NCBI GenBank assembly: GCA_963804345.1
Contig: CAWDPX010000015.1
Location: forward strand, 119,147-183,146
Reading direction: 5' to 3'
Origin: an uncultured Verrucomicrobiae bacterium
GTDB taxonomy: Bacteria; Verrucomicrobiota; Verrucomicrobiia; Limisphaerales; UBA11358
DNA: 64,000 bases
Shown here: positions 1 to 8,145 of the stretch, piece after piece
Layout of the letters: the number at the start of each line of letters is the position of its first letter
Position numbering within the stretch: position 1 is the stretch's first letter
Program-made: the position numbers and the translations under genes
The notes under the pieces: model-generated
What the model was told of the DNA's origin: nothing
The model's database searches: none
The model's input: the letters and a program-made list of their open reading frames with translations, nothing else

Positions 1-804
1 CCACTCCTGCGTAAACTCCAAGGAAAGTTTTTTGCCATGTTTCACTGGCCGAACATTTGTAGTCCCTGGGACAATCGTTCCGAGAATCTCACAAAGCCGC
101 TTTAGATCGCTATCGTAGTCGCGTGAGAGAACTTGAAGCACGCTGGCGGCATTACTCCCGTCACTCTTCAAATTCGTCCCAACATCCGGTTCCTGCATCT
201 CGCGAACCTGAGAGGGTTCGATTGAATAAACACGCATTAGTGATAAGCCCTTCAGCACGGGCGCAAACTCTTTGGTGCCACCAACAACCGGTAATGCGAG
301 AGCTTGCGGGTCCAAGGACGGAACCAGTCCCCCGATACTGGATTGAAAGCCTTGATCCCCACGATCAAACCAAGCGACTTCGGTTCGGCTCACAATGCGA
401 CATTGTTCGCGGACCACCTGAAATCCATAATTAGGAAGGGCCTTAATCTCGAAGGCATAGTGCCCGCTGATCGGTGTCCCGTTGGAGAATTGAAACTCAA
501 CCCCAATGCCTAAATTAGGCGGATAACTGCGACTCCCAGAACGGTGGCGCACGATGCTGATGCCACCACGTTTGTCGAACACCGCCTGAAGCGGCAAGGC
601 CATGCACTCGCTTAAAAAAGCAAAAGCGTCCACGACATTGCTTTTGCCCGCCCCGTTCTTACCAACCAGAAACGTCGGGTTCGACAGGTCAACTGCCTCA
701 GCGGGCACGCTGCGGAACCGCTTCAAAATCAATCTGCGTATGCGTATCGGAAGCTCTGCCATTTGGGAAACATTAACCGAGCGCCTTGAACTTGACGACT
801 TCAT
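1..804 (-). CDS. AAA-family ATPase (SMC/RecF-like head, AAA_21/COG4637-like); C-terminal part lies outside the window
   Basis: Own translation of the minus strand from ATG 804 (alternative ATG 762) gives ..MAELPIRIRRLILKRFRSVPAEAVDLSNPTFLVGKNGAGKSNVVDAFAFLSECMALPLQAVFDKRGG.. with Walker A GKNGAGKS. The frame stays open to position 1. The start overlaps the methylase stop (ATGA). It is absent from the ORF track because the window edge cuts it. Confidence 0.6.
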   Translation of the reverse strand, partial: MKSSSSRRSVNVSQMAELPIRIRRLILKRFRSVPAEAVDLSNPTFLVGKNGAGKSNVVDAFAFLSECMALPLQAVFDKRGGISIVRHRSGSRSYPPNLGIGVEFQFSNGTPISGHYAFEIKALPNYGFQVVREQCRIVSRTEVAWFDRGDQGFQSSIGGLVPSLDPQALALPVVGGTKEFAPVLKGLSLMRVYSIEPSQVREMQEPDVGTNLKSDGSNAASVLQVLSRDYDSDLKRLCEILGTIVPGTTNVRPVKHGKKLSLEFTQEW

Positions 805-3800
805 TTTATTCCCCTCATCGCAGCCTGCACGCCTTCGAGCATACGGCGCTCATCGCTGCCATCTGGGTAAAGGGCGTTCAAGGCGAGGGCGAGTCTTTCA
901 AAGCGTTTGCTTTGGCGCAACTCTGTTTCCAACACCTGACGTAAGAGCGTGCTGCGACCGAGACCGAATAAGAGCATGGCGCGATGCAGACGGTCGAGTG
1001 TCGTGAACTCGACTTCAGTGGTCGCCTTGCCGGGCACGGGCTTCGACTTCTGGCCGCGCTTGGGCTTGGACATCAACGCCGCTTCTTCGCGGCGTTGCGT
1101 GGCCAGGCCGAGTTCAAGCTGTTTCACATCTTCAAGCGTGATTTCGATGCCGGGGCGCGTGGCGGCTTCGCCGAGCAACTGTTCGCTGCGCTCGCGCACG
1201 GGCAGCAGGCGCACGATGCCTTTCTCGATCTCGATGACGCGGTGTTCCAGCGTGGGATAATGAATCCCCATCGGGCGCGTGATGCGGATGAACGTGTCGA
1301 ACGGCATCGAGAACCCGGCCTTGGCCTTTTTCGGCTTCGACTCGTCCTCGTCGTTCTCGGCCTCATCCTCGGCTTCGACGGCGGTTTGGCTTTGCCGTTG
1401 CCGTTGCCGTTGGCTTTCGTGGCTTGCAGCGTCCAGAGGAACAACGCCGTCATACGCGAATCTTCCTCGAAACCTTCCGCTGATGCCTCGCCGGAAGGCG
1501 CGTCGCCGAGCACTTGGCGCAGGGCTTCCTTGGAAAGCGTCTCGAAAACGTAGGCGAGGAAACCGCGCTGCTCTGGCTCAATGGCATCTGGGTCGCCGCC
1601 GAGCGGCACTTCGCGGTCGGCGGCGGTGAGCACTTTCTCGTAACGGCTGTAAGATTCCAGCGCCGGGCCGAGGCAGGAGAAGATGGCGTCCGCGCCGCGA
1701 ACCCCGTGCTTGACCAGCGTGGGCAGCCATTCCCGAATCCGCTTTTCCATCGCCGCCTTCACTTCCGTCCAATCGCCAACACCCGCGTCGGCAGGGCGCG
1801 GGCGGCAAACAAGGTGAACGCTCCCGGTTAGCGCGGCAGAATCACGAGCGCGAAGGCGCGATGCCATTTCAGTATTGATCGGCCACGATGCGGTGATCGC
1901 CCAGCCTCCGCGAATCATTCCAGAAAGCAACGCCTCCCAGCCTTCAGTAGTCTTGTGCGCGAAAACAACGCATCCAATGCCTTCAGATTTTATCACCCTT
2001 CGTCCTTCTGCGAAAGCCTCCGCCATTCCTGTGAAGAAGAAATCAGCGTCTTTAGGTTTTGATTTCTCATCCACCGCCGTCGTGACGGTCAGCTTCTCTA
2101 GCTTTTGGAGTGAGTGTGTTTGTGGCGTCGGAAGGGTCACGCAGTTGCGGATGGCCCGGCAGAACTCGCTTCAACCAAACAAAAAAGAAATCCGACAAAT
2201 CGGCATACGCTACGTTGTCCCAATAGGGAGGGTCGGTGAACCAGACCGTGGCGGTCGCATCAGGCAATGGCGATTTCGTCGCATCAGCTAACCTCACCTG
2301 CCCGACTGTCGAGGTCCGGCTAGATTCTACGACTTCAGAAAGTAACGTGTAGCCACTCTTGAAATTGCCAGGGCAGTTCGCGAATGGTTGAACCTCTGCA
2401 AAATCCCATACCATCGGGAACGCTTGCCTCCCGAAACCATGTTGAATTTTTTCTCCGTATGCGTTCCAGTCTTGTGAATGTCATGTTGCTCATTGCGAGC
2501 CGGTCGAGTGCAACAGCCATGAGTTCGGCGACTGCCGAAGACCCCGTGGAATCACGGCCGGTAATTCCCGAAGCAGCGCCGCGAGCTTTGCTAACGTTAG
2601 TTTCTGCCGGGCTGTAAAGAAATCTCCCCAATTATCCATTCCATAGATGCGGGGCGATGCGACGGCGCGAGTGTCCGTGCTGCCAAGGAGAAGGTTCGCT
2701 GGGCACCAAGTCGGCAGGTAATCGGCGCAACATTCGAGAAGCGGCATAAACAGCATCGATAGTCCTTTTTTGCAGCTATGCGAAATTGACCCGTCCGGGT
2801 TGGTCCTCTCGAACTGAAATGACGGCAATCAGTCTTGCACCACCAATTCGTCTTCTGTTTTCGTCGAATACAACATCAGCTCCGCCCCTCTGTTTTGAGA
2901 GTTGACTACGCACGCGAGCAGCCGGCAATACGACGTTACAACATGGGCACGTAGCGTTTGCTCTGCTGACAGTGGCGGCAGGAACAGCCTCATCGCCTTT
3001 TGGCTCAAACACCTCAAATCGGATTTCAGGTGTCTTGGTTGACTCCCTGATTATTTCATAGCGAAGTGCCTGTTTTGTTTTCGACTTTTTGCTAAACCAG
3101 AATGACCGCATGAAGGGAATTTCCGCGCCGCAGCCGATGCCTTCGCAGCGCACTGTCCGCGCCCAAAGGTAGGCGATGGGGCGGCTGCCGTCCGGTTCGG
3201 GCGGATAGAATTGCGCGAGTTCCTTTTCCGCCGCCGCCTTCACCTGCTTGCCGACGTGCCGCACCGCATCGGCGAGGCCGTGAACGACAATTTCTTTGCC
3301 CTTGTCGTCCGCCAGCTTGAACTCCGCGTTGCCGTAGCGCGGGATGTCTTCGAGCAGCGTCTTGAGAATGAGGCAGGCGACGGGATTGAGGTCGCTGGCA
3401 AAGGCTTCGCAGCCGAGCCGCAGGGCTTCGAGAGGAATTGAGCCGCCGCCGGAAAACGGGTCAACGACGACGGGCGTTTCTTCGGGATGCGCGGCTTTGA
3501 CGAGTCCCCGGCCAATTTCCAGATACAGGGCGTTGGCCGCGTGATCCCAGTTGGCGAACTCGCCGATGAATTTCAGGAGCAGTTCGCGCAGTTCCTCGTC
3601 GGATTTGCTGCGCTGTGCCATAACGCTTGGCGAGGAGTGCCCGCGCCGTGGTTTTGAAATCCGCCGGACAATCCCGGTCGCACGGGTCGGGCAGGAGCAA
3701 TCCGAGCAGAACCGACCGGCAGGCCGCCAGCGGTCGCCGCGCCCACCACAGATGAACATGTGGAGATGTGTCCTTTCGGGCGTAGATTTCTCCCTCGCCG

Positions 3801-7600: not shown

Positions 7601-8145
7601 ATATGGAACGATTCCTGAAAACGGTCGGCCATTTCGCGCTGCCACTGGAAGGCAAGGTTCGCCGGGCAGATAATGAGTACGCGCTCGACCAGCCCGCGCA
7701 ATTTGAGTTCCTTGAGCAGCAGCCCGGCCATGATGGTCTTGCCCGCGCCCGCGTCATCGGCGAGGAGAAACCGGCAACGAGCAGATTTCAACAGGTGGTT
7801 GTAAACAGCGTCGAGTTGGTGCGGCAACGGGTCAACCCGCGAAATGGACAAACCAAAAAACGGATCATATTCCTGTGCCAGCGAAATGCGGAGGGCTTCG
7901 AGACCGAGCTTGACGAGTTTTGGCTTTGCCGCGAATTGTTTTTCCGGTCGCTCAATCTCGATGGATTGGAGATCGGTCTTGGTCAGCGTGACGCCGCCTC
8001 GGAAAGTCTTCGAGCGTGTGCCGACAAGGTTCACCAATACGAAACCATCGCCCACGGTGGGATTGCCAATGATCCGCATCGGCTCGCTGAACTGCGAACC
8101 GTTCAACACGACGCCATCAACGAAGTCATTGGCGGAAATGCTCAT
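4693..8145 (-). CDS. SNF2-family helicase with C-terminal DUF3883 (restriction-endonuclease-like) domain
   Basis: 1150-aa intact ORF. [10 protein letters not shown], motif I [15 protein letters not shown], motif II [19 protein letters not shown], helicase-C [36 protein letters not shown]. The C-terminal part ..[37 protein letters not shown] is typical of DUF3883. Confidence 0.85.
   Translation of the reverse strand: [1150 protein letters not shown]

What the first reader, a model, noticed from the sequence alone, without database searches (positions are those of the whole stretch)
1..8145. A helicase-methylase defence island with non-canonical partners (NYN protein and AAA ATPase in place of DUF499)
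The minus-strand order is: SNF2 helicase with a DUF3883 nuclease-like tail, promoter and leader, NYN protein, DUF1156/COG1743 Zn-ribbon methylase, AAA ATPase (start overlapping the methylase stop, ATGA).

DUF1156 methylases are known from comparative genomics of defence islands to associate with COG0553/DUF3883 helicases and a DUF499 ATPase, as a predicted restriction-modification-like system. Here DUF499 is absent, and a PIN-fold NYN protein plus an SMC-like ATPase occupy the operon.

This could be an undescribed variant architecture, or the wreck of a canonical system, since the methylase is degraded.
Basis: partly seen in the sequence, partly recalled or inferred. Interest (0 to 1): 0.6.

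Follow-up and report, generated by a model that had tools for sequence, protein, structure and literature searches.

The report
Hma defence locus with embedded guest genes
This is a known type of bacterial anti-phage locus (Hma, a helicase-methylase-ATPase system) carrying two already catalogued "guest" defence cassettes; the supposedly missing ATPase most likely lies just beyond the window edge, and the "degraded" methylase looks like an assembly error.

Summary
On the minus strand it is: SNF2/DUF3883 helicase (PADLOC HmaA, E 2e-178), a strong promoter plus structured leader, a NYN protein (HEC-09-like), a DUF1156 methylase (HmaB) and an ABC-type ATPase (HEC-01A) cut by the window edge.

This is not a new architecture.
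- HEC stands for "Hma-embedded candidate". NYN genes and ATPase+DUF4276 pairs nested between hma genes were described in Payne 2024, Liu 2024 and a 2026 NAR paper.
- A metagenome twin (L050) has the same order and continues into HEC-01B and HmaC (DUF499).
- So absence of DUF499 cannot be claimed, because the window simply ends. I could not fetch the sequence beyond position 1.

The methylase carries 10 one- or two-base frameshifts.
- It has no in-frame stop and no excess amino-acid change compared with intact relatives.
- The housekeeping gene gltB in the same window is also frameshifted.
- Consensus error is therefore more likely (about 70%) than true decay.

Side finding: an unusually conserved hairpin plus U-run sits directly upstream of 75 of 80 related NYN genes. 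It is more conserved than the coding sequence and has no Rfam match.

Overall this is a new member of a known kind, of low to moderate interest.

The parts
4693..8145 (-). hmaA: SNF2 helicase with a C-terminal NOV_C/DUF3883 PD-(D/E)xK nuclease (1150 aa, intact).
   Evidence: Pfam SNF2-rel_dom, Helicase_C and NOV_C. PADLOC HmaA, E 2.3e-178, covering 10-1098 of the protein and 9-1132 of the 1176-position profile. The DEAH box (VIVDEAHR) and the D...EVK nuclease motif can be read in the translation. It is 93% identical to the helicase of L025 and 85% identical to that of L050.
4641..4668 (-). Sigma-70-like promoter of the NYN cassette (TTGACA, 16 nt, TG-TATAGT).
   Evidence: Best promoter-like site in window 1-9400, 11 of 12 matches with an extended -10. 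TTGACA-type boxes lie at a similar position in many related loci.
4564..4616 (-). Conserved leader element of the NYN gene: UUUAUCUACU, a 9-bp outer helix, an internal loop (ACAC), a GCC-GAAA-GGC inner hairpin, then UUAUUUUUU. It looks like an intrinsic terminator.
   Evidence: There is one copy in the window, at 4605-4571, and one in 75 of 80 NYN loci. None is found in the 12 loci without NYN. In a 69-sequence alignment the outer helix is 98.4% paired, and four pairs show compensatory changes. Mean pairwise identity is 82%, against 69% for the NYN coding sequence. There is no Rfam match. The "49-aa ORF" at 4547-4696 is an artefact of this element.
3911..4543 (-). NYN (PIN-like) ribonuclease gene, 210 aa, of HEC-09-like/LabA-DUF88 type. 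It is an embedded guest gene.
   Evidence: Pfam NYN, E 6e-12. PADLOC HEC-09, E 2.6e-12. It is 25% identical to the tested HEC-09 representative, with Asp15, Asp118 and Asp143/145 aligned to that protein's aspartates. The protein database holds 6080 homologues, the best 120 of them 67-100% identical.
804..3867 (-). hmaB: DUF1156 N6-adenine methylase (about 1017 aa after frame correction), interrupted by 10 frameshifts of 1-2 nt near 3774, 3758, 3620, 2790, 2755, 2670, 2570, 2469, 2090 and 1395.
   Evidence: PADLOC HmaB hits on the fragments. Frameshift-aware alignments to four references give the same 10 events; there is no in-frame stop with three of the four references. The corrected protein hits Pfam DUF1156 at E 1.4e-17. 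Motif I (DPFSGGGS) and motif IV (DPPYW) are present. The protein has 12 private changes at 279 conserved columns, against 8-9 for intact relatives.
1..804 (-). HEC-01A: OLD/ABC-type ATPase, N-terminal 254-268 residues only. The gene runs off the window. The likely true start is Met15, at about position 762.
   Evidence: Pfam AAA_21 and AAA_15. PADLOC HEC-01A model PDLC04178, E 1.5e-58, covering profile positions 6-250 of 399. Full-length homologues of 402-408 aa are followed by HEC-01B in L002-L005 and L050 (truncated in L002) and then by HmaC in L004, L005 and L050.

Best explanation
**What the region is**
Window 1-8145 is the larger part of an Hma anti-phage locus. Hma is also called the type-1 DUF499-centred BREX-related system. 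The locus comes from a Verrucomicrobiota-like genome and runs off the window edge.

**Minus-strand order**
- hmaA: SNF2 helicase fused to a PD-(D/E)xK nuclease.
- A self-contained NYN cassette: its own strong promoter, a conserved terminator-like leader hairpin and a 210-aa NYN RNase related to HEC-09.
- hmaB: DUF1156 N6-adenine methylase.
- The start of an HEC-01 cassette: an OLD/ABC-type ATPase, expected to be followed by a DUF4276/TOPRIM partner.
- By analogy with the twin locus L050 and with L004 and L005, hmaC (DUF499) should follow within about 2 kb beyond window position 1. This is inferred, not seen.

**How it most likely works (inferred from the literature, not tested here)**
- HmaB marks self DNA.
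- HmaC and HmaA recognise unmarked DNA. HmaA translocates along it and nicks it. HmaA alone protected E. coli from phage T4, and its nickase activity was essential (Liu 2024).
- The NYN RNase and the ABC-ATPase/TOPRIM pair are autonomous guest modules. They use the hma operon as an insertion hotspot and probably act as back-up or abortive effectors.

**The methylase frameshifts**
The ten frameshifts in hmaB are most probably consensus errors of a long-read metagenome assembly rather than real decay.
For: **Domain and family assignments**
- HmaA E 2e-178; HmaB models hit on four methylase fragments; HEC-09 E 2.6e-12; HEC-01A E 1.5e-58. DUF1156 E 1.4e-17 after frame correction.

**Published descriptions**
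- Hma, with 62.7% of systems carrying embedded genes; HEC-01 is an ABC ATPase plus TOPRIM-like/DUF4276 protein, and HEC-09 is a NYN protein.
- An AAA_21 ATPase pair lies between hmaB and hmaC in every Halomonas hma locus.
- OLD-ABC/TOPRIM pairs and PIN RNases are described as embedded back-up effectors of the BREX-related (BR) systems.

**Relatives**
- L050 has HmaA, NYN, a PIN_12 protein, HmaB (1121 aa, intact), HEC-01A, HEC-01B and HmaC, all confirmed with PADLOC or Pfam.
- L004 and L005 have the end of HmaB, then HEC-01A, HEC-01B and HmaC.
- L025 and L060 have HmaA, NYN, an intact HmaB and HmaC.
- 12 of 80 NYN loci show Hma genes next to NYN.

**Autonomy of the guest cassettes**
- HEC-01 occurs without Hma in L002 and L003.
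- NYN sits next to an HKD-Snf2 helicase plus a type IIG restriction-modification enzyme, next to PglW, and next to a mad3-like ATPase.
- NYN carries its own promoter and leader.

**Frameshifts as artefacts**
- There are 10 indels and 0 stops.
- The corrected protein has 12 private changes at 279 conserved columns, against 8-9 for intact relatives.
- gltB in the same window has two frameshifts.
- Intact relatives are on Ga-numbered JGI contigs. Broken ones are on contigs with long-read-assembler-style names.
Against: - HmaC and HEC-01B are not visible. The source contig could not be fetched.
- The closest ATPase relative (L002, 84% identical) has a truncated HEC-01B, no HmaC and no methylase. 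Loss of hmaC in this genome is therefore possible.
- The frameshifts are strongly clustered: 10 in 3.06 kb of hmaB, 0 in 3.45 kb of hmaA and 2 in about 4.7 kb of gltB.
- The related assembly L012 shows the same pattern of a clean helicase and a riddled methylase, and may share one insertion near window 3620. That could point to real, gene-specific decay.
- Sequencing platforms were inferred from contig names only.
- The tested HEC-01 and HEC-09 representatives gave no protection in E. coli, so a defence role for the guest genes is unproven.
- The window NYN is only 25% identical to the tested HEC-09 protein.
Confidence: 0.75

Rival explanations
1. A genuinely decaying Hma locus. hmaB is a real pseudogene (and hmaC may be lost as well), while hmaA and the guest cassettes stay functional. 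The locus would then work as an orphan helicase-nuclease plus stand-alone effectors.
For: - There are 10 frameshifts in hmaB and none in hmaA, NYN or the ATPase.
- L012, a relative 90% identical in DNA over the 5' part of hmaB, also has an intact helicase and a shredded methylase. It has an extra base in the same roughly 20-nt stretch as the window.
- L003 keeps only the last 47 codons of a methylase next to HEC-01, and L002 keeps none.
- About 15% of hmaA loci lack hmaB, and HmaA alone can defend.
Against: - There are no in-frame stops and no deletion longer than 2 nt.
- Private amino-acid changes match those of intact relatives (12 of 279 against 8-9 of 279). Ten neutral indels should come with tens of neutral substitutions.
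- gltB, a core metabolic gene, is frameshifted twice in the same window.
- The window and L012 indels are otherwise at different positions.
Confidence: 0.22
2. One reading: a new four-gene system in which the NYN protein and the ATPase functionally replace DUF499.
For: Only the visible gene order in the window, with all four genes on the same strand and short gaps between them.
Against: - The twin locus L050 has the same genes and also HmaC. L004 and L005 likewise have HmaC.
- NYN and HEC-01 each occur independently of Hma.
- NYN has its own promoter and a terminator-like leader.
- Other Hma loci carry different guests at the same positions: PIN_12, a dCTP-deaminase-like protein, a SocA/Panacea pair, GmrSD and Schlafen-like genes.
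Confidence: 0.03

Closest known systems
Hma system (HmaA helicase, HmaB methylase, HmaC ATPase; Payne 2021/2024; Liu 2024), also called the type-1 DUF499-centred BREX-related system (NAR 2026, PMC12839542)
   Same: - An SNF2 helicase with a C-terminal NOV_C/PD-(D/E)xK nuclease.
- A DUF1156 N6-adenine methylase with a Zn-ribbon target-recognition insert.
- A same-strand operon with guest genes nested between the hma genes.
   Different: - HmaC is not visible because the window ends.
- The hmaB reading frame is broken ten times in this assembly.
HEC-01 (Hma-embedded candidate 1: ABC ATPase plus DUF4276/TOPRIM protein), related to PARIS AriA/AriB and to OLD/Gabija ATPases
   Same: - The position between hmaB and hmaC.
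- A strong match to HEC-01A sub-model PDLC04178.
- In relatives the partner is a DUF4276 protein of about 200 aa.
   Different: - Only the first ~254-268 residues (depending on the start codon) of the ATPase are in the window, so the partner is unseen.
- It is 25% identical to the tested Pseudomonas agarici protein, which gave no protection in E. coli.
HEC-09 (Hma-embedded NYN protein; tested representative WP_005744958.1)
   Same: - A single NYN-domain protein of about 205 aa embedded in Hma.
- The catalytic aspartates are conserved.
- The PADLOC HEC-09 model is hit.
   Different: - It is only 25% identical to the representative, and the profile match covers positions 2-149 of 203.
- It lacks the CxxC segment of the representative.
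- It belongs to a very abundant, highly conserved subfamily that carries a conserved 5' leader hairpin. I found no mention of such a leader in the passages of the HEC paper that I read.
Type III toxin-antitoxin loci (ToxIN-like), and RNases that regulate themselves through a stem-loop in their own mRNA (RNase III, RNase E, Regnase-1). This comparison applies to the NYN cassette only and rests on my own knowledge.
   Same: The layout: a promoter, a short structured RNA ending in a terminator, then an endoribonuclease gene expressed by read-through.
   Different: - There are no tandem antitoxin repeats.
- No toxicity or RNA-protein interaction has been shown.
- The same hairpin also ends an unrelated ORF in two viral contigs.

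Membership tests
Hma / type-1 BREX-related (BR) system | HmaA: SNF2 helicase with a C-terminal NOV_C (DUF3883) PD-(D/E)xK nuclease. | tested here: met
   Pfam SNF2-rel_dom, Helicase_C and NOV_C. PADLOC HmaA, E 2.3e-178, nearly full length. The D...EVK motif is present in the translation.
Hma / type-1 BREX-related (BR) system | HmaB: DUF1156 N6-adenine methylase (homology). | tested here: met
   PADLOC HmaB hits on four fragments. The frame-corrected protein hits DUF1156 at E 1.4e-17. It is 74% identical to the intact L060 HmaB.
Hma / type-1 BREX-related (BR) system | HmaB encoded as an intact open reading frame. | tested here: not met
   There are 10 frameshifts in 3867-804. Whether they are real or assembly errors is unresolved; I lean towards error.
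Hma / type-1 BREX-related (BR) system | HmaC: DUF499 ATPase in the same locus. | not testable with these tools
   The window ends inside the gene that follows hmaB, and the source contig could not be fetched. HmaC is present in L004, L005, L050, L025, L060 and L013.
HEC-01 | HEC-01A: ABC-type ATPase. | tested here: met
   PADLOC model PDLC04178, E 1.5e-58, over all 268 available residues. The Walker A motif GKNGAGKS is present.
HEC-01 | HEC-01B: DUF4276/TOPRIM-like partner immediately downstream. | not testable with these tools
   It would lie beyond window position 1. It is present in L003, L004, L005 and L050, and truncated in L002.
HEC-09 | A NYN-domain protein of about 200 aa with the conserved aspartate triad, embedded in an hma locus. 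| tested here: met
   Pfam NYN, E 6e-12. PADLOC HEC-09, E 2.6e-12, partial coverage. Asp15, Asp118 and Asp143/145 align with the representative's aspartates at 25% overall identity.
HEC-01 / HEC-09 | Demonstrated anti-phage activity. | not tested
   The published representatives of both candidates showed no protection against the phages tested.
Type III toxin-antitoxin (considered for the NYN cassette) | Tandem-repeat antitoxin RNA upstream of the toxin gene. | tested here: not met
   There is no tandem repeat in the leader. There is a single hairpin copy per locus, except two copies in L041.

The most novel reading that the evidence does not exclude
The NYN cassette may be an RNA-controlled RNase module. 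A short leader RNA of about 60-75 nt would run from a strong promoter to a sequence-conserved terminator hairpin. That hairpin is more conserved than the protein it precedes and often abuts the start codon with no Shine-Dalgarno sequence. The RNA could act as a specific attenuator, as an autoregulatory cleavage or binding site, or as an antitoxin-like inhibitor of the NYN RNase. The hairpin copies without NYN in two viral contigs could then be phage decoys. Rfam has no such family.
Probability: 0.2. Interest if true: 0.6.

Novelty: new member of a known kind. Interest (0 to 1): 0.25.

Why it matters
For the finding as posed, it matters little. It adds one more Verrucomicrobiota example of an Hma locus used as a docking site for other defence genes, a phenomenon already published.

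Two practical lessons follow.
- Window edges can make a component look absent when it has merely been cut off.
- Clustered 1-2 nt frameshifts in long-read metagenome assemblies can look like pseudogenes. A frameshift-aware alignment combined with a count of private substitutions helps to tell the two apart.

The conserved leader hairpin of this very abundant NYN subfamily could explain how a potentially toxic RNase is kept silent. It could also explain why HEC-09 scored negative in heterologous tests. It is cheap to test.

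Tried and rejected
- **Fetching DNA beyond window position 1.** Exact-protein look-ups with the helicase, NYN (twice), the 168-aa fragment and P0121 all failed or returned only a 2.5-kb Logan contig.
- **A naturally split, two-gene methylase.** I considered this because every top database homologue is at most 630 aa (N-terminal part) or at most 433 aa (C-terminal part). 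I rejected it because P0195 reads through the junction and L025, L050 and L060 encode intact proteins of 1012-1121 aa.
- **Phase variation or programmed frameshifting.** I rejected this. There are ten sites; only one lies in a simple repeat (the hexamer repeat at 1392-1412), and a few lie near A5-6 runs.
- **The 49-aa ORF between the helicase and NYN as a real gene.** I rejected this. The conserved sequence is read in different frames in different loci, so it reflects the RNA hairpin.
- **A known RNA family for the leader.** There is no Rfam hit at E <= 1.
- **Strict NYN-specificity of the hairpin.** This is weakened by two viral contigs in which the hairpin follows an unannotated 424-aa ORF and no NYN gene is present.
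- **tRNA or integrase markers for island borders.** There is no tRNA in the window. The genes flanking the helicase side look like housekeeping genes, such as a GH28-like enzyme and T2SS protein F.

Full report
**1. What is in the sequence**

All the genes below are on the minus strand of window 1-8145.

- **Helicase, 4693-8145 (1150 aa, uninterrupted).**
  - Pfam finds SNF2-rel_dom, Helicase_C and NOV_C, the DUF3883-type tail.
  - The PADLOC HmaA model matches almost end to end, E 2.3e-178.
  - The DEAH box and a D...EVK nuclease motif are readable in the translation.
- **NYN protein, 3911-4543 (210 aa).**
  - Pfam NYN scores E 6e-12, 46.7 bits against a 24.2-bit cut-off.
  - The only PADLOC hit is HEC-09, E 2.6e-12.
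- **Methylase, 3867-804.**
  - Several ORF fragments hit the two PADLOC HmaB models in collinear order.
- **ATPase, from 804 to the window edge.**
  - The N-terminal 268 residues are present.
  - Pfam finds AAA_21 and AAA_15. The SMC_N hit is below its cut-off.
  - The residues match HEC-01A sub-model PDLC04178 at E 1.5e-58.

**2. What these names mean**

- HEC stands for "Hma-embedded candidate".
- Payne et al. (bioRxiv 10.1101/2024.01.29.577857) reported the following:
  - 62.7% of 1,485 Hma (helicase-methylase-ATPase) systems carry extra genes nested between the hma genes.
  - HEC-01 is an ABC ATPase plus a TOPRIM-like/DUF4276 protein.
  - HEC-09 is a NYN protein.
  - Neither HEC-01 nor HEC-09 protected E. 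coli in their assays.
- Liu et al. 2024 (PMC11232893) reported the following:
  - HmaA alone defends against phage T4 through a nickase domain.
  - hmaB is found next to 85% of hmaA genes and hmaC next to 81%.
  - Every Halomonas hma locus has an AAA_21 ATPase gene pair between hmaB and hmaC.
- A 2026 NAR paper (PMC12839542) renames the system "type-1 DUF499-centred BREX-related". It lists OLD-ABC/TOPRIM pairs and PIN RNases as embedded back-up effectors.
- The "non-canonical partners" are therefore catalogued guests, not replacements for DUF499.

**3. Is DUF499 absent?**

- This cannot be decided from the window, because the window ends inside the ATPase gene.
- The source contig could not be retrieved.
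- Relatives give the following picture:
  - A genome scan with the ATPase found five loci.
  - In L004 and L005 (61-63% identical) the order is the end of HmaB, then HEC-01A, HEC-01B and HmaC, with HmaC at E 1e-91 to 1e-93.
  - A metagenome scan with NYN returned 80 loci. Twelve of them have Hma genes next to NYN.
  - L050 is a full twin. Its order is HmaA (85% identical), NYN (70%), a PIN_12 protein, an intact 1121-aa HmaB, HEC-01A (76%), HEC-01B (DUF4276) and HmaC.
  - L025 and L060 have HmaA, NYN, an intact HmaB and HmaC.
- One caution: the closest ATPase relative, L002 (84% identical), has a truncated HEC-01B, no methylase and no HmaC. It sits among housekeeping genes.
- L003 keeps only the last 47 codons of a methylase.
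- Loss of hmaC in this genome therefore remains possible.

**4. The guests are autonomous**

- HEC-01 occurs without Hma in L002 and L003.
- NYN homologues are extremely abundant: 6080 database hits, the best 120 of them 67-100% identical.
- Most NYN loci with long flanks lack Hma.
- Where neighbours could be named, they are other defence genes:
  - an HKD-Snf2 helicase plus a type IIG restriction-modification enzyme in L069;
  - BREX PglW in L041;
  - a mad3-like ATPase in L046.
- Other Hma loci carry different guests at the same positions: PIN_12, a dCTP-deaminase-like protein, a SocA/Panacea pair, GmrSD and Schlafen-like genes.

**5. The "degraded" methylase**

- I ran a frameshift-aware protein-to-DNA alignment against a composite reference and three intact HmaB proteins (L025, L050, L060).
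  - All four give the same ten frameshifts of 1-2 nt.
  - With the composite, L025 and L060 there is no in-frame stop. The L050 alignment adds two more frameshifts and one stop near window 1050-1100.
- The corrected 1017-aa protein:
  - hits DUF1156 at E 1.4e-17;
  - keeps motifs I and IV;
  - is 74% identical to the HmaB of L060.
- At 279 alignment columns conserved in at least 90% of relatives, it has 12 private changes, mostly conservative. Intact L025, L050 and L060 have 8-9.
- Ten neutral indels should be accompanied by tens of neutral substitutions, some stop codons and some larger deletions. None of these is seen.
- The same window also has gltB split by two frameshifts:
  - The N-terminal CGVGF segment lies in ORF 56679-57104.
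  - The Glu_syn_central domain is split, with profile positions 1-129 in one ORF and 170-277 in the next.
- Close relatives from Ga-numbered JGI contigs are intact. Those on contigs with Flye- or metaMDBG-style names are broken, at different positions.
  - The sequencing platforms are my inference from contig names only.
- I conclude that consensus error is more likely than decay, roughly 70:30.
- Three points remain unexplained:
  - The clustering is strong: 10 frameshifts in 3.06 kb of hmaB and 0 in 3.45 kb of hmaA.
  - L012 shows the same pattern and has an extra base in the same short stretch near window 3620.
  - The 99.96% identical Logan contig L001 stops at window 3827, 40 nt into hmaB.
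- One technical explanation would be cross-mapping of reads from related populations onto the more conserved methylase segment, which is 90% identical to L012 in DNA against 81% for the helicase. This is untested.

**6. Promoter and leader**

- The best promoter-like site in window 1-9400 is TTGACA-16-TG-TATAGT at 4668-4641.
- Downstream, at 4605-4571, lies a hairpin followed by UUAUUUUUU and then the NYN start codon.
- The same element precedes NYN in 75 of 80 related loci.
  - Three of the five exceptions lack enough upstream sequence.
  - The element is absent from the 12 loci without NYN.
  - It is unique in the window.
- In a 69-sequence alignment:
  - The 9-bp outer helix is 98.4% paired.
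  - Four pairs show compensatory changes.
  - 0 of 500 shuffles reach the observed covariation score.
- Mean pairwise identity of the element is 82%. It is 69% for the NYN coding sequence and 53% for the 50 nt upstream of the element.
- In many loci the U-run abuts the ATG with no room for a Shine-Dalgarno sequence.
- Rfam has no match, and there are no ToxI-like repeats.
- The "49-aa ORF" called here by gene finders is an artefact of this RNA.
- Two viral contigs carry the same hairpin after an unannotated ORF and have no NYN gene.
  - The element is therefore not strictly tied to NYN.
- I read it as a conserved attenuator or autoregulatory element. A more specific role, as an antitoxin-like RNA, is speculative.

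**7. Verdict**

- The interpretation as an undescribed architecture is not supported.
- The region is a new member of a known kind: an Hma / type-1 BREX-related locus with HEC-09-like and HEC-01 guests.
- Absence of HmaC is not established, and the methylase decay is doubtful.
- The leader hairpin is the only element that may be new.

Noticed in passing
window 4564-4616 (-); alignment A1; L014-L093: A highly conserved terminator-like hairpin plus U-run lies directly 5' of the NYN gene in 75 of 80 related loci. It is more conserved than the coding sequence (82% against 69% identity), shows compensatory pairs and has no Rfam family. L041 has two tandem copies.
   Followed up: partly
L094 103-149 (+); L095 1145-1191 (-): Two IMG/VR viral contigs carry the same hairpin immediately after the stop codon of an unannotated 424-aa ORF, with no NYN gene nearby. 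It could be a shared terminator module, a remnant or a decoy.
   Followed up: partly
window 56679-61421 (+): The glutamate synthase large-subunit gene (gltB) is split into three ORFs by two frameshifts, near 57040 and near 58750-58930. This shows that the assembly contains indel errors outside the defence locus.
   Followed up: partly
protein database hits P0001-P0240: Almost all close database homologues of this methylase are fragments: at most 630 aa for the N-terminal part and at most 433 aa for the C-terminal part, even on contigs longer than 1 Mb. The gene seems unusually prone to being broken, or mis-assembled, in long-read metagenome assemblies.
   Followed up: partly
L012 7983-11056; window 3865-800: The related assembly L012 repeats the pattern of an intact 1184-aa helicase next to a heavily frameshifted methylase. 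Its indels are mostly at other positions, but it has one extra base in the same stretch as the window, near 3620.
   Followed up: partly
L001 (Logan, SRR28061837), matching window 6308-3827: A 2482-nt contig from another read set is 99.96% identical to the window and ends 40 nt into hmaB, just before the first frameshift cluster. This suggests population heterogeneity or a sequencing problem that starts at the methylase.
   Followed up: no
L002 2816-4422; L003 4431-6441: HEC-01 cassettes occur outside Hma. In L002 the HEC-01B gene is truncated (133 aa) and the cassette lies next to peptidase, exosortase and GH62 genes. In L003 the cassette is preceded by only the last 47 codons of a methylase, a scar of a lost Hma locus.
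   Followed up: partly
L050 10682-11881; L025 9657-10670: There are further guest genes in otherwise similar Hma loci: a 399-aa PIN_12 protein between NYN and hmaB in L050, and a weak (below-threshold) dCTP-deaminase-like 337-aa protein between hmaB and hmaC in L025.
   Followed up: partly
window 3870-3905: A short 7-nt tandem repeat (GATTTAC, 4.7 copies on the plus strand) fills the 43-nt gap between the NYN stop codon and the hmaB start codon.
   Followed up: no
window 23155-24372 (-): A 405-aa ORF combines ECF sigma-factor regions 2 and 4 with a SecDF P1-head domain. This is either an unusual fusion or another frame problem.
   Followed up: no
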